The notes under the pieces: model-generated | What the model was told of the DNA's origin: nothing | Seen by the model: the letters and a program-made list of their open reading frames with translations, nothing else | Databases searched by the model: none | From: an uncultured Acidobacteriaceae bacterium | Lineage (GTDB): Bacteria > Acidobacteriota > Terriglobia > Terriglobales > Acidobacteriaceae | DNA length: 64,000 bases | Assembly: GCA_963791875.1 (NCBI GenBank) | Contig: CAWBUI010000005.1 | Coordinates: forward strand, 2,340-66,339 | Direction: 5' to 3' | Part shown: positions 1-6,246 of the stretch, one piece after another | How positions within the stretch are numbered: the stretch's first letter is position 1 | Layout: each line of letters begins with the position of its first letter | Position numbers and translations under genes: made by a program

Positions 1-70
1 CGCCCACACGCAAAAGCCTCGCAAACAGCCCCGCCTGCCTTAACATAGATCGAACGCCCAAAAGGACTCC

Positions 71-2030
71 ATGGCAAGCGCACCCTCCACTCCCGTCCCC
101 TCCCGCACAGCCTCTCCCCAATCCGCGCCAGACCGCCTCTTCGCCGGCGCCCGCGTCCTCGGCGACGGCGCCATGGGCACCATGCTCTACGCCCGCGGCA
201 TCTTCATCAACCGCTGCTACGACGAGCTCAACCTCTCCCAGCCCGAGATCATCGCCGCCATCCACACCGAATACCTCCAGGCCGGCGCCGAGATCATCGA
301 AACCAACACCTTCGGCGCCAACTCCTTCCGCCTCGAGCGCTTCGGCCTCCGCGACAAGGTCCGCGACATCAACCTCGCCGGCATCCGCATCGCCCGCCAG
401 TGCGTCGACCAGATGCGCGAAAAGCAGGCCTCCGACGCCTTCGTCGCCGGAGCCATCGGCCCCCTCGGCGTCCGCCTCGAACCCCTCGGCAAAGTCGGCC
501 TCGACGAGGCCCGCGCCGCCTTCGCCGAACAGATCGCCGCCCTCGCCGAAGGCGGTCCCGGCGTCGGCGCCGACCTCCTCATCGTCGAAACCATGACCTC
601 CCTCGCCGAGGCCTCGCAGGCCGTCCTCGCCGCCCAGCAGGTCGCCCCCACCCTGCGCGTCCTCGTCATGATGACCGTCGACGAAGAAGGCAACTGCCTC
701 GACGGAGCCTCCGCCGAAGCCGCCGCCGCCCGCCTCACCGAACTCGGCGCCGACGCCGTCGGCTGCAACTGCTCCGCCGGTCCCGCCACCGTCCTCTCCG
801 TCATCGAGCGCATGCGCAAGGTCACCGACCTCCCGCTCGCCGCCATGCCCAACGCCGGCATGCCCCGCGAGGTCGAAGGCCGCAACATCTACATGGCCTC
901 GCCCGAGTACATGGCCAGCTTCGCCCGCAAGTTCCTCCAGGCCGGCGCCACCTTCCTCGGCGGCTGCTGCGGCACCACGCCCAGCCCACATCCGCGCCAT
1001 GCGCTCCGCCGTCCGCGCCATCGAAGCGCAGGACGCCCCAACGCCGGCACCGCCCAAGCCGACCCCGAAGCCGCCGTGGACTTCGCGCCCGCTCCACCGT
1101 CCCAGGCCGCTCACCAGCAAAGTAGCTCCGCCGCCCCTCGCCGAGCGCTCCCGCATCGGCGCCATGATCGCCCGCGGCGAGTTCGTCACCCTCGTCGAAA
1201 TCGTCCCCCCCAAGGGCATCGACTGCTCCAAAGGAGATCGAAGGCGCCGCCTACCTCCACAAGCTCGGCGTCCACGCCATCAACGTCCCCGACTCCCCCC
1301 GCGCCTCCGCCCGCATGTCCGCCCAGAGCCTCTGCGTGCAGATCCAGCAGCACGTCGGCATCGAGACCGTCCTGCACTACACCTGCCGCGACCGCAACGT
1401 CCTCTCCATCCAGTCCGACCTCATCGGCGCCTCCTCCATCGGCCTCAAAAACATCCTCTGCCTCACCGGCGACCCGCCCAAGCTCGGCAACTACCCCGAC
1501 GCCACCGCCGTCTTCGACGTCGACGCCATCGGCCTCACCAACCTCGTCCGCAAGCTCAACCACGGCCTCGATATCGGCGACAACTCCATCGGCGCCTCCA
1601 CCGGCTTCACCATCTGCGTCGCCGCCAACCCCGGCGTGCCCGACATCGACCACGAGGTCCGCCGCTTCGCCTACAAGGTCGAGGCCGGCGCCGAGTACGC
1701 CATCACCCAGCCCGTCTTCGACATGCGCCTCCTCGAAGAACTTCCTCAAGCGCATCGAAGCAGTTCCGCATCCCCGTCATCGCCGGCATCTGGCCGCTCA
1801 CCAGCCTCCGCAACGCCGAGTTCATGAAGACCGACCTCCGCGTCTCCATGCCCGACGAGATCCTCGCCCGCATGGCCACCGCCTCCATCACCCCCGAGAC
1901 CGCCCGCGCCGAAGGCGTCCGCATCGCGCAGGAGATGCTCGCCGAAGCCCGCCCCATGGTGCAGGGCGTCCAGGTCTCCGCCCCGTTCGGCAAATACATC
2001 GCCGCCGCCCAGGTGCTCGGCCTCGTGTAG
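71..2030 (+). CDS. yitJ: Bifunctional homocysteine S-methyltransferase / 5,10-methylenetetrahydrofolate reductase (four +1 frameshifts, likely sequencing errors)
   Basis: N-terminal DGAMGT, ETNTFGAN, GCNC and GGCCGTTP motifs; MTHFR motifs VEIVPPKG, LHYTCRDRN, LTGDPP, AITQPVFD, PVIAGIWPL are spread over ORFs 71, 999 and 1315. Removing extra bases at ~986, ~1231, ~1739 and ~1758 restores one frame. Confidence 0.92.
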
Positions 2031-2060
2031 CAACGCCGCTCGCGGTCAAAGACAAATCTC

Positions 2061-2089
2061 TGGACAGCTCTCGGGACGAAGGGTACCCT
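2061..2089 (+). promoter_or_regulatory. Putative sigma70 promoter for the 2200 gene
   Basis: TGGACA-N17-TACCCT, ~110 nt upstream of ATG 2200. Confidence 0.45.
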
Positions 2090-2199
2090 TCCCTCATCCC
2101 CGTGTCCCTTCTTCGCCCGTCGCCGGCAGCACCTTGCCCGCAACGGGGGATTCCCTCCAAAGGGCTTTCCCGGTATCACAGCAAATAAGGGTTCCCGCC

Positions 2200-3216
2200 A
2201 TGATCTGCTCCAGAATTGCACCCGTGCTCCTGCTCGCCGCCTCCGGCCTCTCCCTCTCTGCGCAGACAGTCACCGGCTCAGGATCCGCGAACACCGTACC
2301 CCTCTTCTCCGGCAGCTCTACCCTCACCAACTCCGCAATCACCCAGAGCAACGGCCAGGTCGGCATCAACAATCCATCACCCACCGCGTCGCTCGACGTG
2401 CTCGGCACCTCCCGCTTCCACGGCGGCATCACCACCTTCGGCAGCGGCGTCCAGCTCAGCCTCGGCGAAGCCTACCTCCTGGCCAGCAGTCCCGCCGGCA
2501 GCAACGCCGGTATCACCGTCGACCGCGGCGCAACCACCAGCTTCAGCTCCATCGACCTCCTCACCGGCTCTAACATCTTCACCGGCTGGTCCTTCCAGAT
2601 GCAGCCCAACTCAACCGAGCTCGACATCGTCGACCGCGCGACCCAGGGCCAGCCCAACCTCATGATCTTTCGGCCCTCCTACGCCGAGGTCAACGGCAAC
2701 CTCACCGCCGACGGCTCCTTCACCGTCAAAGGCCAGGGCGGCATCACCTTCTCCGACGGCACCGTCCAGGCCACCGCCTTCACCGGCGTCGTCTGCGGCG
2801 GCGACTACGCCGAATCCGTCGACGTCACCGGCGACCGCACCCGCTACGAGCCCGGCGACCTCCTCGTCATCGACCCCTCCGCCGAAGGCAAGTTCCTCAA
2901 ATCTGCCGAGCCCTACTCCACGGCCGTCACCGGAATCTACTCCACCCGCCCCGGAATCACCGGCCGTCGCCAGCTCACCGACCGCGCCAACCTCCCCAAC
3001 GAGGTTCCGATGGCCATGACCGGCATCGTCCCCACCAAAGTCTCCGCCGAAAACGGCCCCATACACCCCGGCGACCTCCTCGTCACCTCCTCCCGCCTCG
3101 GCTACGCCATGAAGGGCACAGACCGCTCCCGCATGCTCGGTGCCGTCATCGGCAAATCCCTGGGCCACCTCGACGCCGGCACCGGCACCATCGAAGTAGT
3201 CGTCACCCTCCAGTAA
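2200..3216 (+). CDS. Secreted tail-fibre/adhesin-like protein with C-terminal Peptidase_G2-like (intramolecular chaperone) domain
   Basis: Sec signal (MICSRIAPVLLLAASGLSLSA|Q); GQVGINNPSPTASLDV fibre-type motif; GITFSDGTVQ; C-terminal GGDYAE...PGDLLVID...GIVPTKV...GPIHPGDLLVTS...AVIGKSL. Confidence 0.6.
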   Translation: MICSRIAPVLLLAASGLSLSAQTVTGSGSANTVPLFSGSSTLTNSAITQSNGQVGINNPSPTASLDVLGTSRFHGGITTFGSGVQLSLGEAYLLASSPAGSNAGITVDRGATTSFSSIDLLTGSNIFTGWSFQMQPNSTELDIVDRATQGQPNLMIFRPSYAEVNGNLTADGSFTVKGQGGITFSDGTVQATAFTGVVCGGDYAESVDVTGDRTRYEPGDLLVIDPSAEGKFLKSAEPYSTAVTGIYSTRPGITGRRQLTDRANLPNEVPMAMTGIVPTKVSAENGPIHPGDLLVTSSRLGYAMKGTDRSRMLGAVIGKSLGHLDAGTGTIEVVVTLQ

Positions 3217-3272
3217 AGCCGCTAGGCCGCCCCGCCCCCAACCCCACCCCAACCCCAACCCGCGACCAAACC

Positions 3273-3340
3273 GGGTGCCCCATCCTAACCGACAGCTCCA
3301 CCGTCGGTTAGGGTGGGTATCGTTTGCGGAAGCAAACGAC
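3273..3340 (+). repeat. REP-like palindromic element (GGGTGCCCC-headed) with two hairpins
   Basis: CCCATCCTAACCGAC-9nt-GTCGGTTAGGGTGGG stem (15 bp, one G-U) followed by TCGTTTGC-GGAA-GCAAACGA. Confidence 0.7.
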
Positions 3341-3513
3341 CCCCTCACTCCCTCCACCCCGGCATTCCGCACCCACTCACCCACGCAACCTACTCCCACA
3401 AACGTTCTGTCAAGCCCCCCAAAAGTTCAACCACCTCATTCCAAATGGCTTACACACCAGCAAGAACGTCAATGAGTTATCCCCAATCCCGTATACTGGA
3501 AATAGATCACCTC

Positions 3514-3543
3514 AGAAGGCCCGGCCCACCAGCCGGGCCTTCT
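3514..3543. terminator. Perfect 12-bp hairpin, terminator-like
   Basis: AGAAGGCCCGGC-CCACCA-GCCGGGCCTTCT; weak U-tract. Confidence 0.5.
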
Positions 3544-3619
3544 CCCATTAACCCGGACCCACGCCCGGCAACTCCTTTAGACGAAGTACTTTAGGACTTA
3601 AGTACAGGGGGACCCCACC

Positions 3620-4447
3620 ATGGACTACGAGCTTCCCGAACCGCAGGCGCCCGACCCGAAGCGCCGCTTCCTCTGTCGCCACGTCTTCTCCGAAGGCCGG
3701 CGCTGCGGCTCCCCCGCCCTCCGCGGCCACCATCTCTGCTTCTACCACCACTCCTCCCGCCAGCAGCCCCCCATCGCGAACGGCCGCACCCGCGAGAGCG
3801 CCGTCTTCCAGATGCCGCCGATAGACGACCGCGCCGGCGTCCAGCTAGCCCTCTACCAAGTCCTCGCCCGGATCGCCGGAGCCGAACTGGACCCCAAACG
3901 AGCCGGCCTCCTCCTCTATGGCCTCCAGATCGCCTCCGCCAACCTCCCCCGCCACCCCAAAGCGGCCCCGGCGGATCTCTCCCAACCCGCCGAACCCCTG
4001 GTCGAACACGTAACGCACCACCTCTACCTCGGCGCGCTGGCCCCCGTCCAGGAACTCCCGGAGGACCCCGCCAAAGAAGCCCTGCCGGAGCAGCAGCCAC
4101 CCCCCACATACCCCCGCCGCGATCTAAACGATTGTCATCCTGAGCAAAGCGAAGGACCTGCTTCCCCAACCCCGACCCCGCAGCCAGCCCCACCAAACCA
4201 CTCTCACCGCTCCCCGCTGAACCATACCCAGCGATCCCCGCTGAACCATACCCAGCACCGCAATGTAAACGATTGTCATCCTGAGCAAAGCGAAGGACCC
4301 GCTTCCCCAACCCCGAGACCAACCCTCCCACCCACCTGGCCCGCATCCTTCCGCGCCACCGACCGGCCGCCTTCATCTCCAACCCACCTCTACCCCATAC
4401 CCGGCATGCCCACCCTGGGATGCCGCCTCGCAGACGCATCCCCCTAA
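3620..4447 (+). CDS. Hypothetical protein with N-terminal CCCH-type Zn-finger, helical domain and repeat-derived Pro-rich tail
   Basis: CRHVFSEGRRCGSPALRGHHLCFYHH then DDRAGVQLALYQVLARIAGAELDPKRAGLLLYGLQIASANL; C-ending codon bias as in neighbouring genes; GGGGGA SD. Confidence 0.75.
   Translation: MDYELPEPQAPDPKRRFLCRHVFSEGRRCGSPALRGHHLCFYHHSSRQQPPIANGRTRESAVFQMPPIDDRAGVQLALYQVLARIAGAELDPKRAGLLLYGLQIASANLPRHPKAAPADLSQPAEPLVEHVTHHLYLGALAPVQELPEDPAKEALPEQQPPPTYPRRDLNDCHPEQSEGPASPTPTPQPAPPNHSHRSPLNHTQRSPLNHTQHRNVNDCHPEQSEGPASPTPRPTLPPTWPASFRATDRPPSSPTHLYPIPGMPTLGCRLADASP
4125..4316 (+). repeat. Two 51-bp direct repeats with GTCATCCTGAGC..GCGAAGGA REP core, flanking a 24-bp tandem repeat, all in frame
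   Basis: Copies 4125-4175 and 4266-4316 differ by one base (both NDCHPEQSEGPASPTP); tandem TCCCCGCTGAACCATACCCAGC at 4211 and 4235. Confidence 0.9.
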
Positions 4448-5421
4448 TACAGCGACGGTTCCCCTGCCGGCCGCGTCTTCCACCGCCGATGCATCCACAA
4501 CCACTGCGTCGGATACCGCCGGATCGCGTCCTCCAGCACCGCCGTGAACCGCGCCGTGTTATCCACCGCATCGGCCTCCGCATCGCCTGTGTCAGCAAGC
4601 GCAAGCTCCGGCCCGAAGTGCAACACATACTGACCCTCGGCCTCTTCCCAGGCCAGGAATCCCGGCACCACCGCCGCACCCGTCTTCAGCGCCACCCGGG
4701 CCAGCCCCGAAGCAGTGCAAGCCTCCACCCCGAAAAACGGCACAAACACTCCCTGCGGAGGAGTCATGTTCGTATCCATCAAAATCCCCACCGTCTCCCC
4801 CGCACGCATCGCCCCGATCAGCCCGCGCGCGAAGTCGTCCTTGTGCAGCACGCGGTTCCCATGCGCGCACCGGATCCGGTTCACCATCGCATCCACCAGC
4901 GGATTGTCCAGCCGCCGGATCACCATCCCCATCGGGTAGCCCGCCAGCGAGTGATAGAAGCTCGAAAGCTCCCACGCGCCCAGGTGCCCCGTCAGCACCA
5001 GCACGCCACGGCCGCGCCCTCGCGCCGTCAGATAATGCTCCAACCCCTCGTACCGGATGAACCGCCCGGCAAACTCCCGGCTGTAGCGGGGCATCTGGCA
5101 GAACTCCGCAAGCAGCCACCCGAGGTGCCGATATTCAAGCCGTAACATGCGCTCACGCTCGGCGACCGGCAGCGCAGGAAACGCCAGCTCCAGGTTCCGC
5201 AGCCCCACCCGCCGCAGCCGCGAGAACGCCACGTAAGCAAGTCTCCCGATCCCCGCGCCCAGCGCACGGGCAAGCCGCCGCGGCAGCCATCGCAGCGTCT
5301 GGATGAACAGCCAGGCCGCCGCAAACTCAGCACGATGGCGCAGTGTAGGCCCGGTGGAAGCCTGTGAGTCGGATTGCAGAGCGCGCGCCAAGTCAGTTAA
5401 GTGTAACGAAAGAAGCAGCAC
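4444..5421 (-). CDS. lpxL: Lipid A biosynthesis lauroyl/lysophospholipid acyltransferase (start uncertain, possibly TTG 5391)
   Basis: LTGHLGAWE (HxxxxE), VFVPFFG, YPTQWLWMHRRWKTRP. Confidence 0.88.
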   Translation of the reverse strand: MLLLSLHLTDLARALQSDSQASTGPTLRHRAEFAAAWLFIQTLRWLPRRLARALGAGIGRLAYVAFSRLRRVGLRNLELAFPALPVAERERMLRLEYRHLGWLLAEFCQMPRYSREFAGRFIRYEGLEHYLTARGRGRGVLVLTGHLGAWELSSFYHSLAGYPMGMVIRRLDNPLVDAMVNRIRCAHGNRVLHKDDFARGLIGAMRAGETVGILMDTNMTPPQGVFVPFFGVEACTASGLARVALKTGAAVVPGFLAWEEAEGQYVLHFGPELALADTGDAEADAVDNTARFTAVLEDAIRRYPTQWLWMHRRWKTRPAGEPSLY

Positions 5422-5487
5422 CGCCCACCGCAGTGCCGCTTCGCCGTCTGCGTCGGTTAGACGGTTTGCGTCACGGGAAGTGGGCGC

Positions 5488-5524
5488 AAAAAACCGCCAG
5501 CCTCAGTGTTCCGAGGCTGGCGGT
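5488..5524 (-). terminator. Rho-independent terminator of the SYLF gene
   Basis: ACCGCCAGCCTC/GAGGCTGGCGGT 12-bp stem followed by U6 on the minus strand, 24 nt after the stop. Confidence 0.85.
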
Positions 5525-5547
5525 CTGGAGATCGTGGGCGAAGTGAG

Positions 5548-6246
5548 TTACTTGCTGGCCTTGGAGTTCACGAAGTAGCGCGCTACGGTGCGAACGAACG
5601 CCTTCGCATTTTCCGGAACGGGACGCTTGCCACCCAGAACGGTGTCGAACGGGAGATCGCTGCCGTACTCCGTGCGCGTGTCATCGGCATTCTGCGAGAG
5701 GACAGTGCCGTCAAGGTCGAGACCGGCAAACAGTCCCTTCGAACGCGAGTAGGTAAGAAACTCGGCATTGAGCTTCCAGTCCGTTCCCGCCTGTGCGTTG
5801 CGGCCCACGGGACCGGCAGAAGCAGCAGCATCTGCACCCAGCTTGACCTTGGCCTTCAGCATGTCCTGCAGGCCGTTCTGGTTCATCGCGATCAGTACCA
5901 GATCGGTAGATTGACCGCCAATCTGCCAACCGAAGCTTCCGCCTTCAAGCTTCACAAATACCGGAGCGCTCCAGCCGTTCGGTGTGCGGCACGTCGCCGC
6001 GCCCTGACCATACTGCGCGCCAACCACAAAGGCGCCCTTTTTGTACGCGGGGATTACGACCACGCACGACGCGCCGGAAAGGATCGCCGAAGGAATGCCC
6101 TTGTCGGGAGTCGCCATAATCTCGTTGACGACAGCCTGCGCGCTTACGAGTCGCTCGTCCAGCTTTGCCTTATCAGAGGCTGCAAATCCAGGTAGAGTCG
6201 ACGCCAACAGGCCGACTCCGCACATAATCGAAGAAAAAAGCTTCAT
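5548..6246 (-). CDS. Secreted lipid-binding SYLF/YSC84-domain protein
   Basis: Signal peptide; KKGAFVVGAQYGQG, WSAPVF, GGSFGWQIGGQSTDLVL, YSRSKGLFAG. Confidence 0.92.
   Translation of the reverse strand: MKLFSSIMCGVGLLASTLPGFAASDKAKLDERLVSAQAVVNEIMATPDKGIPSAILSGASCVVVIPAYKKGAFVVGAQYGQGAATCRTPNGWSAPVFVKLEGGSFGWQIGGQSTDLVLIAMNQNGLQDMLKAKVKLGADAAASAGPVGRNAQAGTDWKLNAEFLTYSRSKGLFAGLDLDGTVLSQNADDTRTEYGSDLPFDTVLGGKRPVPENAKAFVRTVARYFVNSKASK

What the first reader, a model, noticed from the sequence alone, without database searches (positions are those of the whole stretch)
3273..4447. Composite module: REP hairpins + inverted AT-rich sites + hairpin + Zn-finger ORF, a candidate repeated or selfish unit
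Seen in ~350 bp of noncoding DNA: a GGGTGCCCC-headed double hairpin; two loosely similar AT-rich sites in opposite orientation (3429-3452, reverse complement TAAGCCATTTGGAATGAGGTGGTT; 3569-3592 CAACTCCTTTAGACGAAGTACTTT); a TATACT box before a perfect 12-bp hairpin; and palindromes AAGTACTT and ACTTAAGT just before the ORF. The ORF has a CxH-x7-C-x10-C-x2-H finger and an LDPKRAGLLLYGLQIAS helical domain. I recall this protein family and this upstream style as multi-copy in Acidobacteriaceae, but have not verified it. Inference: an uncharacterised nucleic-acid-binding protein travelling with its own cis sites, possibly with a short RNA.
Basis: partly seen in the sequence, partly recalled or inferred. 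Interest (0 to 1): 0.72.

Follow-up and report, generated by a model that had tools for sequence, protein, structure and literature searches.

The report
Multi-copy zinc-knuckle gene on repeat cassettes
This stretch holds one of seven copies of an unstudied small zinc-binding protein gene found only in one family of soil Acidobacteria, and it sits behind a promoter-and-leader cassette that is itself a repeat scattered about 80 times through the genome, in front of unrelated genes and at gene-less sites.

Summary
The REP-type hairpins, the TATACT box, the perfect 12-bp hairpin, the short palindromes and the Cx9Cx10Cx2H ORF are all at the stated coordinates. The "inverted AT-rich sites" (12/24 identity) are no better than chance.

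The interval is not one private unit. It is a stack of independently repeated blocks:
- REP hairpins.
- A ~150-nt promoter module (box TGTCAAGCCCC, a -10-like box, a terminator-like hairpin), 78 copies in this genome.
- A ~43-nt leader ending in a G-run, 16 copies.
- A gene for a basic zinc-knuckle protein.
- A tail built of in-frame REP copies.

The protein family is large (4802 cluster representatives), matches no curated family or solved fold, and was found only in this bacterial family. It has 0-14 copies per genome and no conserved neighbour gene.

All seven paralogs here carry the cassette, as do most homologues in the genus. In one relative, three 98-99.5% identical ~0.9-kb copies of cassette plus gene lie in unrelated contexts. 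The cassette also replaced the ancestral thiG leader in this lineage, and about 30 copies are gene-less.

Best reading: a repeat-borne expression cassette driving a probable nucleic-acid-binding regulator. A link between protein and leader units is only suggested.

The scan noted similar cassettes, and this protein type, in other Acidobacteria.

The parts
3273..3317 (+). REP-type hairpin with a GGGTGCCCC head (arms 3279-3293 / 3303-3317), 57 nt after the stop of the upstream gene
   Evidence: Sequence read. The GGTGCCCCAT head occurs 36 times and GGGTGCCCC 65 times in the genome. The same head-stem-GGGTGGG design is seen in loci of relatives.
3320..3339 (+). Second small hairpin, TCGTTTGC-GGAA-GCAAACGA
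   Evidence: Sequence read. The double hairpin 3268-3345 has one other 93% copy, at C13:14588-14656.
3401..3551 (+). Promoter module, one of 78 copies. It is a short variant that lacks the TTGGCnGTTTAG box.
   Evidence: nhmmer profile hit at C5:5740-5890, E = 3.7e-33. The profile converges at 78 copies. A profile built without the seven zinc-knuckle copies still finds this copy at E = 1.4e-17.
3408..3418 (+). Box A, TGTCAAGCCCC, at the left end of the module
   Evidence: 57 exact copies here against 2 for the reversed control, and 0-66 in 40 other genomes of the genus. It lies about 230-320 nt upstream of zinc-knuckle genes in G084, G103, G101, G011 and G099.
3492..3497 (+). -10-like box TATACT (family consensus TAnAAT), with no -35 at canonical spacing
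   Evidence: The column is conserved across the 78 copies. The simple sigma-70 scan finds no full promoter here. The rrn promoter of the same genome is canonical, TTGACA-N16-TAGTCT.
3514..3552 (+). Promoter-proximal 12-bp hairpin followed by CCCATTAAC. It resembles a terminator or attenuator, and its T-tract is weak in this copy.
   Evidence: Fold. 41 of 78 modules have such a hairpin with 40 distinct complementary arm pairs, an A-tract before and a T-rich or TTTAAC tail after. It is conserved upstream of homologues as stem + TTCGCATTTAA. It is not called a terminator by the simple scan.
3570..3619 (+). Leader repeat 'X' (TAAC..CTTTA..GAAGTACTTTAGGAC.TAAGTAC) ending in a G-run/C-run just before the ATG.
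   Evidence: nhmmer finds 16 copies in the genome, mostly 20-200 nt after a promoter module. The best match of this copy is at C2:146196, which is not a zinc-knuckle locus. The same type of leader precedes homologues across the genus and is dispersed in G012 (23 hits) and G103 (15 hits).
3620..4057 (+). Conserved core (aa 1-146) of the zinc-knuckle protein: basic Cx9Cx10Cx2H knuckle, a two-helix hairpin, then the motif LGxLAPxxE
   Evidence: Alignment A2 with its invariant and near-invariant columns. AlphaFold2 gives pLDDT 77, with helices 71-86 and 92-108. 565 homologues and 4802 cluster representatives.
4058..4447 (+). Non-conserved low-complexity tail read through two in-frame REP copies (4118-4175, 4266-4316), up to the stop
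   Evidence: The tails do not align among homologues. The REP segment has 81 BLAST hits in the genome and GTCATCCTGAGC occurs 82 times.

Best explanation
The interval is a stand-alone gene for a small, basic zinc-knuckle protein. The family is large, uncharacterised and restricted to Acidobacteriaceae. The gene is expressed from a modular promoter-and-leader cassette whose parts are themselves dispersed repeats.

Shown:
- Transcription signals, leader and ribosome-binding region come as portable blocks: box A, a -10-like box, a GC hairpin with a TTTAAC tail, a ~29-43-nt leader unit and a G-run.
- These blocks occur about 80 and 16 times in this genome, in front of unrelated genes and at gene-less sites.
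- They recombine independently.
- In this lineage they have replaced the ancestral leader of thiG.
- Every zinc-knuckle paralog here carries such a cassette, as do most homologues elsewhere.
- In one relative the cassette plus gene has recently been copied as a ~0.9-kb block to three unrelated places.

Inferred:
- The TAnAAT box is a -35-independent promoter.
- The hairpin attenuates or ends a short transcript, and read-through gives the mRNA.
- The G-run is the ribosome-binding site and can pair with upstream C/U-rich leader sequence.
- The protein binds nucleic acid through its basic knuckle and dimerises through its helical hairpin.
- Most speculatively, it recognises the repeated leader units on its own and other transcripts or their DNA. 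That would make it autoregulated, and the gene-less units would act as decoys.
For: Family and copy number:
- 7 paralogs at 100-37% identity.
- 35 of 41 genomes of the genus hold 1-14 copies, as do 31 of 60 genera of the family.
- In the phylum sample: 10 of 15 genomes of this family, 0 of 185 genomes of 68 other families.
- 4802 cluster representatives.
- No Pfam, NCBIfam, PDB or fold match.
- Invariant C19, H21, C29, C40, H43 and many conserved Arg residues.

Cassette is a repeat:
- 78 module copies and 16 leader copies.
- Downstream genes confirmed by Pfam as Peptidase_A8, ThiG, Oxidored_q4 and PMT_2.
- About 30 copies face a convergent gene, yet still carry leader units and the C/G-run end 190-350 nt after box A.
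- The box B variant is specific to this lineage: 34 copies here against 0-1 in 60 other genomes.
- About 15 relatives share a different conserved thiG leader, while G000 and G009 have the cassette.

Link to the gene:
- 7 of 7 paralogs have the module, hypergeometric P about 1e-12.
- 6 of 7 are found by a profile built only from the other 71 copies.
- In 71 homologous loci, box A is present in 41, a GTCCAGAC motif in 43, the GAAGACTTT-type unit in 41 and a G-run in 49, against 0-8 in control flanks.
- In G084, 2 of 4 box A copies precede its only 2 zinc-knuckle genes. In G103 the figure is 4 of 7.
- Three 98-99.5% identical 0.88-0.96-kb copies in G103 have unrelated flanks.

Hairpin is selected as structure: 40 different complementary arm pairs.

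Leader units and protein co-occur:
- Other genera carry 2-3 tandem ~29-nt units of the same type before their zinc-knuckle genes.
- Typical tandem units were seen in 10 of 31 genera with the protein and 1 of 29 without, Fisher P = 0.006.
Against: - No experiment or transcript data are available.
- The simple sigma-70 scan finds no promoter at 3200-3700, and this copy's hairpin lacks a T-run. Both promoter and terminator roles rest on conservation and position.
- The protein-to-leader link is only correlative. Modules far outnumber the genes.
- A degenerate single-unit pattern shows no difference between genomes with and without the protein (Mann-Whitney P = 0.34).
- The tandem-unit classification was done by eye, and genera are not independent.
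- G009 has many modules but no zinc-knuckle gene was found in it (82% complete, 200 contigs).
- The predicted fold matches nothing, so nucleic-acid binding is inferred from composition and the C3H knuckle only.
- The assembly is 64% complete by marker genes and shows frameshifted genes, so G-run lengths and ORF ends may contain errors.
Confidence: 0.55

Rival explanations
1. Selfish composite element. The zinc-knuckle gene and its cis sites form one mobile unit that copies itself, with the protein acting on the flanking sites to promote its own spread.
For: - The gene is multi-copy and patchy, not syntenic and has no conserved neighbour.
- Three near-identical ~0.9-kb copies with a shared right end lie in unrelated contexts in G103.
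- The copies are flanked by REP-type elements.
Against: - The cis blocks are about 10 times more numerous than the gene and occur without it.
- The blocks shuffle independently. This copy's promoter part is closest to that of a 37%-identical paralog, and its leader is closest to a copy at a locus without the gene.
- No terminal inverted repeats or target duplications were seen at the G103 junctions.
- The conserved core of about 146 aa has no nuclease or recombinase signature.
Confidence: 0.15
2. There is no functional link. The cassette is simply a successful portable promoter/5'-UTR repeat (a 'mobile promoter'). The zinc-knuckle genes are one of many passengers, or the original source, and their shared upstream regions reflect descent and gene conversion. 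The protein does something unrelated.
For: - 71 of 78 modules are at other loci.
- The thiG promoter was replaced.
- The box B variant is lineage-specific.
- Promoter and leader parts are dispersed independently in G012.
- The single-unit pattern does not track the protein.
- No zinc-knuckle gene was found in G009, which has many modules.
Against: - The cassette architecture is kept upstream of paralogs whose proteins have diverged to 37-42% identity, and upstream of homologues in other genera whose unit sequences differ. That is hard to explain by descent alone.
- In genomes with few box A copies, those copies are concentrated at zinc-knuckle genes.
- Tandem units are enriched in genera that have the protein.
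Confidence: 0.25
3. The key product is a short RNA. The -10 box plus the hairpin form a gene for an RNA of about 45-60 nt (an A/G-rich 5' arm followed by a terminator hairpin). The gene-less units of 200-350 nt are longer non-coding RNAs. The protein-coding genes downstream are expressed only by read-through (attenuation or antitermination, possibly of nut/boxA type through the CAUUUAAC tail).
For: - The hairpin is selected as a structure, with an A-tract before it and a T-rich or TTTAAC tail after it.
- The initial transcribed sequence AGAAGTAGAG is conserved.
- About 30 units have no downstream gene.
- The rrn leader boxA of this genome (GATCTTTGACAA) partly resembles the tail.
Against: - 37 of 78 modules lack the hairpin.
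- This copy's tail has no T-run and fails the terminator scan.
- No Rfam family matches.
- The transcribed parts are less conserved than the promoter, which is unusual for an RNA gene.
- The boxA resemblance is 5-6 of 9 bases only.
Confidence: 0.3

Closest known systems
Putative mobile promoters / promoter reuse (Matus-Garcia, Nijveen and van Passel 2012; PMC3575422)
   Same: Homologous upstream sequences lie before non-homologous genes in one genome. Here copies share 80-82% identity over 107-135 nt, and an ancestral leader was replaced.
   Different: - The family here is far larger (78 copies, whereas most described families are pairs).
- It is built of several recombining blocks, including a hairpin and a ribosome-site leader.
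- About 40% of the copies are gene-less.
- It is tied to one protein family.
Mosaic intergenic repeats that carry promoters or alter transcripts: Correia elements of Neisseria, ERIC, pneumococcal BOX, E. coli BIME/REP (as cited in PMC3575422; otherwise from my own knowledge)
   Same: These are short non-coding dispersed repeats with modular make-up, hairpins and outward promoter activity. They lie in intergenic DNA next to REP-type elements.
   Different: - No terminal inverted repeats or target duplications were found here.
- The element is directional, running promoter to ribosome site.
- It ends just before start codons.
- No RAYT or transposase link was tested.
Plant WRC domain (Pfam PF08879), a C3H zinc finger of GRF transcription factors
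   Same: It has the identical Cx9Cx10Cx2H spacing in a basic stretch. The Pfam alignment covers residues 28-48.
   Different: The score is 11.2 bits against a cut-off of 28.6, E = 0.31. The host is bacterial and a different helical domain follows. This is a resemblance, not membership.
Small zinc-finger or RNA-binding regulators acting on leaders, with decoy RNAs: phage Mu Com on the mom leader, and CsrA with CsrB/CsrC (from my own knowledge)
   Same: This is an analogy of logic only. A small protein would act on repeated short motifs in 5' leaders that overlap the ribosome site, on its own leader too, and gene-less transcripts would carry several motif copies.
   Different: There is no sequence or fold similarity. 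Binding is untested, the motifs differ, and the decoy role of gene-less units is a guess.

Membership tests
Putative mobile promoters (PMP; PMC3575422) | At least 80% identity over at least 50 nt between regions upstream of genes | tested here: met
   The copy at C8:621931 matches C3:487435-487569 at 82% over 135 nt and C10:5541-5644 at 80% over 107 nt.
Putative mobile promoters (PMP; PMC3575422) | The adjacent coding sequences are not paralogous | tested here: met
   Downstream genes include Peptidase_A8, ThiG, Oxidored_q4 and PMT_2, besides the zinc-knuckle genes.
REP / BIME elements | A short imperfect palindrome with a conserved head, many intergenic copies | tested here: met
   This holds for 3273-3317 and for the tail copies. 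The head GGTGCCCCAT occurs 36 times, GTCATCCTGAGC 82 times, and there are 81 BLAST hits. It does not apply to the promoter module.
REP / BIME elements | An associated RAYT (TnpA_REP) gene in the genome | not tested
   No search for a RAYT was run.
MITE / Correia-type transposon-derived repeat | Terminal inverted repeats and target-site duplication | tested here: not met
   No such features appear at the three G103 junctions. The left end (TGTCAAGCCCC) and right end (C-run/G-run) share only a C/G run. The check was by eye, not exhaustive.
Sigma-70 promoter | -35 and -10 hexamers at 16-18 nt spacing | tested here: not met
   The scan of 3200-3700 finds none. Only a conserved TAnAAT is present. 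The rrn promoter of this genome is canonical.
Intrinsic terminator | A GC-rich stem-loop followed by a T-run | tested here: inconclusive
   The stem is present and varies in a compensatory way. 20 of 41 copies have at least 4 T in the 9 nt after the stem. The window copy fails the scan.
WRC domain (PF08879) | A score above the Pfam gathering threshold | tested here: not met
   11.2 bits against 28.6. The Cx9Cx10Cx2H spacing itself is met.
Rfam RNA families | A covariance-model match in 2000-6000 | tested here: not met
   The only hit is a chance snoRNA match outside the feature, E = 0.023 and below the gathering score.
Nus-factor antitermination site (boxB hairpin + boxA) | A boxA matching the organism's own rrn boxA, next to a hairpin in a leader | tested here: inconclusive
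   The own rrn leader has GATCTTTGACAA. The cassette tail CATTTAACC shares about 5-6 of 9 bases. There is no functional test.

The most novel reading that the evidence does not exclude
The zinc-knuckle proteins are the trans-acting partners of a lineage-specific repeat system. They would bind the ~29-nt leader units (TAAC..TTT..ATTTTGC-type, here GAAGTACTTT-type) carried by portable promoter-leader cassettes. That would place dozens of unrelated genes, and their own genes, under one post-transcriptional or operator-type control. The roughly 30 gene-less mini transcription units would act as decoys. This would be a regulatory network that spreads by copying its cis cassette, with paralog number and cassette number expanding together.
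Probability: 0.17. Interest if true: 0.82.

Novelty: new variant of a known kind. Interest (0 to 1): 0.62.

Why it matters
Acidobacteria are among the most abundant soil bacteria, and almost nothing is known about how they control genes.

- **Promoter rewiring.** A directional promoter-plus-leader cassette has spread to about 2% of the gene starts of one genome. It has displaced the conserved leader of a housekeeping operon (thiG). It also exists as gene-less units. That is promoter rewiring on a scale rarely documented.
- **An untouched protein family.** The zinc-knuckle family has thousands of members, is confined to one bacterial family and matches no curated model or solved fold. It is always attached to this cassette, so it is the obvious candidate for a partner.
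- **If the link holds,** this would be a new type of regulator-plus-repeat system.
- **If it does not,** the cassettes are still useful. They give candidate native promoters and ribosome-binding leaders for genetic tools in Acidobacteria, and they warn annotators that many 'ORF tails' and short ORFs here are translated repeats.

Tried and rejected
- **Sigma-54 promoter for the TTGGCnGTTTAG box.** The GG-to-GC spacing is off by 1-2 and the GC is not conserved (read). Rejected.
- **Box A as a -35 of an upstream promoter.** No -10 follows it at 16-18 nt. Rejected.
- **Fold and sequence searches.** Foldseek against PDB (best E = 2), a PDB profile search, NCBIfam and the ESM Atlas (only hypothetical Acidobacteriota clusters) gave no lead. 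The pdb_via_wide library was unavailable.
- **RNAalifold on a MAFFT alignment of the hairpins.** The stems were misaligned, so only 4 pairs were predicted. I replaced it with per-sequence folding.
- **Exact motif searches across the family.** GTCCRGACYTAA and CTTYGCATTTAAC were at background. The motifs are genus-specific, so these say nothing about co-occurrence.
- **Degenerate single-unit pattern TCWWKATTTTG.** It did not separate genomes with and without the protein. In two genomes without the protein its hits were scattered singletons.
- **My crude GC3 gene caller.** It covers only 61% of the genome, so its orientation counts are weak. A codon-phase profile was used instead.
- **TPP riboswitch for the conserved thiG leader of relatives.** No Rfam family reached its gathering score.
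- **Conserved neighbour genes of the zinc-knuckle gene.** None was found in 109 loci.
Full report
**1. What is at 3273-4447**

- Two hairpins lie at 3279-3317 and 3320-3339, behind a GGGTGCCCC head.
- A TATACT box lies at 3492-3497.
- A perfect 12-bp hairpin spans 3514-3543.
- The palindromes AAGTACTT and ACTTAAGT lie at 3585-3604.
- A 275-codon ORF (3620-4447) carries C19-x9-C29-x10-C40-x2-H43 and KRAGLLLYGLQIAS.

The one element that fails is the pair of 'inverted AT-rich sites'. They share 12 of 24 bases. The same 274 nt hold 178 such inverted pairs, and shuffles give 60-194.

**2. The protein**

The own genome (13 contigs, 4.3 Mb, 64% complete by markers) holds seven paralogs at 100, 82, 77, 42, 40, 38 and 37% identity over the first 114 residues.

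A word-indexed search gave 565 homologues, all unnamed or 'hypothetical', with no Pfam domain. An exhaustive profile search gave 4802 cluster representatives at E <= 1e-3 and 3250 at E <= 1e-10.

Features of the 112-sequence alignment:
- C19, R20, H21, G26, C29, C40, H43, L99, L102 and L109 are invariant.
- Many arginines are nearly invariant.
- Conservation ends near residue 146, after a motif LGxLAPxxE.
- The tails do not align.

AlphaFold2 (pLDDT 77) predicts a small knuckle (residues 15-47), a linker and a two-helix hairpin at 71-108.

Nothing known matches:
- Pfam gives only sub-threshold WRC and RING-like hits, although the Cx9Cx10Cx2H spacing equals that of WRC.
- NCBIfam, PDB sequences and Foldseek give nothing.
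- The ESM Atlas gives only hypothetical Acidobacteriota clusters.

Distribution:
- 35 of 41 genomes of the genus, with 1-14 copies each.
- 31 of 60 genera of the family.
- In a phylum sample, 10 of 15 genomes of this family and 0 of 185 genomes of 68 other families.
- Record titles of related loci name Acidobacteriaceae, Edaphobacter, Granulicella and Terriglobales.
- No neighbouring gene family recurs in more than 5 of 109 loci.

The copy in the window is not syntenic. In 11 genus relatives the lipid A acyltransferase gene (window 4444-5421) directly adjoins the homologue of a gene just left of the window. In this genome about 4.4 kb lie in between, including the zinc-knuckle gene.

The tail of this copy reads through two in-frame copies of a REP family with about 80 genomic copies. 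This agrees with an earlier first-stage note on this window.

**3. The upstream DNA is a repeat, not a private control region**

The upstream regions of all seven paralogs align. They share these blocks in order:
- A box TGTCAAGCCCC ('box A').
- In four of the seven, a box AAAATAGTTGGCnGTTTAG ('box B').
- A TAnAAT box followed by AGAAGTAGAG.
- An A-tract, then a GC hairpin with a T-rich or TTTAAC tail.
- In five of the seven, further leader sequence ending in a G-run before the ATG.

A profile of the first ~150 nt finds 76 copies in the genome and converges at 78. A profile built only from the 71 copies that are not next to a zinc-knuckle gene recovers 6 of the 7 paralog upstream regions at E <= 1.4e-17. 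The association therefore does not come from how the profile was built. With 78 modules among roughly 3800 gene starts, 7 of 7 has P about 1e-12.

Genes downstream of other copies are unrelated. Pfam confirms signal peptidase II, ThiG, NuoA and a PMT-type glycosyltransferase.

A codon-phase profile shows that about 45 copies are followed by a co-oriented gene and about 30 by the 3' end of a convergent gene. These 'orphan' copies still carry leader pieces. They end in the same cassette, typically ACCACCCCCCGGGGGGAGGGGGGTACCC, 190-350 nt after box A. They are gene-less mini transcription units.

The last ~43 nt before the ATG of the window gene ('leader X', consensus TAACCCCTTTATCCGAAGTACTTTAGGACCAAAGTACGGGGGG) is a second repeat with 16 copies, mostly 20-200 nt after a module.

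The blocks shuffle. The promoter part of the window copy is closest to that of the 37%-identical paralog on C1. Its leader is closest to a copy on C2 that is not at a zinc-knuckle gene.

**4. Promoter and hairpin**

The TAnAAT box is the best-conserved short element besides box A and box B, and it sits at the right place for a -10. There is no -35 at canonical spacing, and the simple scan calls no promoter. The rRNA promoter of the same genome is canonical, TTGACA-N16-TAGTCT. Promoter function is therefore inferred: it may be -35-independent, activator-dependent or served by another sigma factor. From memory, many copies read GCTAYAMTTAA, which resembles the sigma-S-type extended -10 of proteobacteria. 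This is a lead, not a test.

The hairpin is selected as a structure. 41 of 78 modules have a perfect stem of at least 7 bp, with 40 different arm sequences, all complementary. An A-tract precedes the stem and T-rich sequence follows it. Upstream of homologues in other genomes the same stem plus TTCGCATTTAA recurs with compensatory variants.

The hairpin looks like a promoter-proximal terminator or attenuator. The window copy has a weak tail (CCCATTAAC) and fails the terminator scan. No Rfam family matches.

**5. History of the cassette**

- Box B is specific to this lineage: 34 exact copies here against 0-1 in 60 other genomes of the family.
- BLAST with one copy finds many hits only here and in G009. 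G009 is unpublished. The statements that a second genome shares abundant box-B-type modules and the thiG replacement rest on it.
- Box A is older. It is over-represented in most genomes of the genus, 0-66 copies against 0-3 for the control.
- At thiG, about 15 relatives share a different, conserved ~250-nt leader that matches no Rfam family. G000 and G009 have the cassette there instead, each with a different leader piece. This shows lineage-specific promoter replacement rather than an old regulon.
- In G012 the promoter part (16 hits) and the leader part (23 hits) of a zinc-knuckle upstream region are dispersed separately.

**6. Link between protein and cassette**

Across the genus the same architecture precedes the zinc-knuckle genes.
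- Box A lies within 420 nt in 14 of 26 usable loci.
- In 71 loci from public genomes, box A is present in 41, a GTCCAGAC motif in 43, a GAAGACTTT-type unit in 41 and a G-run in 49. Control flanks give 0-8.
- Where box A is rare it sits at these genes: 2 of 4 copies in G084, 4 of 7 in G103, 1 of 2 in G101.
- Box A count and paralog number correlate across 41 genomes (Spearman 0.55). Genome size, completeness and kinship confound this figure.

In G103, three copies of a 0.88-0.96-kb block are 98-99.5% identical and lie between unrelated genes. The block runs from 75 nt before box A through the promoter and leader to about 190 codons of the gene. All three share the same right end, and the left end abuts REP-like elements. 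No inverted termini or target duplications are seen. The gene does travel with its cassette.

In four other genera the leaders of these genes carry 2-3 tandem ~29-nt units of the same type, TAAC..TTT..ATTTTGC. A tandem-unit pattern finds typical units in 10 of 31 genera that have the protein and in 1 of 29 that lack it (Fisher P = 0.006). This classification was by eye, and genera are not independent.

Two results weaken the link:
- A looser single-unit pattern shows no difference.
- In G009, which has many modules, no paralog was found. That assembly is fragmented.

**7. Verdict**

The interval is a stack of repeated building blocks, not one private or demonstrably selfish element.

The best-supported reading is a portable promoter-leader cassette, of the mobile-promoter or mosaic-repeat kind (PMC3575422), driving a family-restricted zinc-knuckle gene. 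That the protein acts on the cassette is a testable hypothesis with modest comparative support.

Earlier agents of this scan described promoter-bearing repeat cassettes in other Acidobacteria, and first readers noted this protein type in two other genomes. I found no paper on either.

Tallies include the unpublished genomes G022 and G045. One search includes the unpublished G017. No specific claim depends on them.

Noticed in passing
L139, L141, L142, L144-L146, L148, L150, L153, L156 (about 100-360 nt upstream of thiG in genus relatives): Relatives share a strongly conserved ~250-nt thiG leader. It has a Shine-Dalgarno site, a ~20-codon ORF (MIQPMKIDSNSC...), several hairpins and a terminator-like stem with a T-run. 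No Rfam family, including the TPP riboswitch, reaches its gathering score. It may be an undescribed leader-peptide or RNA control element of thiamine genes, and it is replaced by the repeat cassette in this genome.
   Followed up: partly
window 71-2188: A YitJ-like bifunctional gene (homocysteine S-methyltransferase + MTHFR) reads in three different frames (71.., 999.., 1315..), so it is frameshifted or mis-assembled. Together with 64% marker completeness in only 13 contigs, this suggests indel errors in the assembly or real pseudogenes.
   Followed up: no
window about 1-4447 (G000:C5:2340-6786): About 4.4 kb lie between two genes that are adjacent in 11 genus relatives. The segment holds the frameshifted YitJ-like gene, a tail-fibre-like secreted protein (2134-3216) and the zinc-knuckle gene. 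This is a lineage-specific insertion or rearrangement.
   Followed up: partly
G000:C8:622838-622883 and G000:C10:245595-245637: Further copies of leader X lie inside or at the end of the long 'tails' of the paralogs on C8 and C10. The annotated-looking tails therefore read through the next repeat cassette and are probably not all translated.
   Followed up: no
G000:C11:32400-32560 (downstream of the module at C11:32728, minus strand): A tandem array of a ~19-nt unit (CCGTTCATCCATTTAC x6) sits between a module hairpin and a leader Y unit in a gene-less cassette.
   Followed up: no
G000:C1, about 100-260 nt upstream of the 16S gene (16S 515F site at C1:448485): The rRNA leader has a canonical promoter (TTGACAAGCC-N-TAGTCT) whose -35 region resembles box A (TGTCAAGCCCC). 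It also has a boxA-like GATCTTTGACAA after hairpins.
   Followed up: no
G070 (several contigs, e.g. C173:2627-2666, C199:8073-8112): In another genus the ~29-nt units TCAAKATTTTG occur as tandem pairs at many dispersed sites (62 hits). The leader-unit repeat is therefore genome-wide there too.
   Followed up: partly
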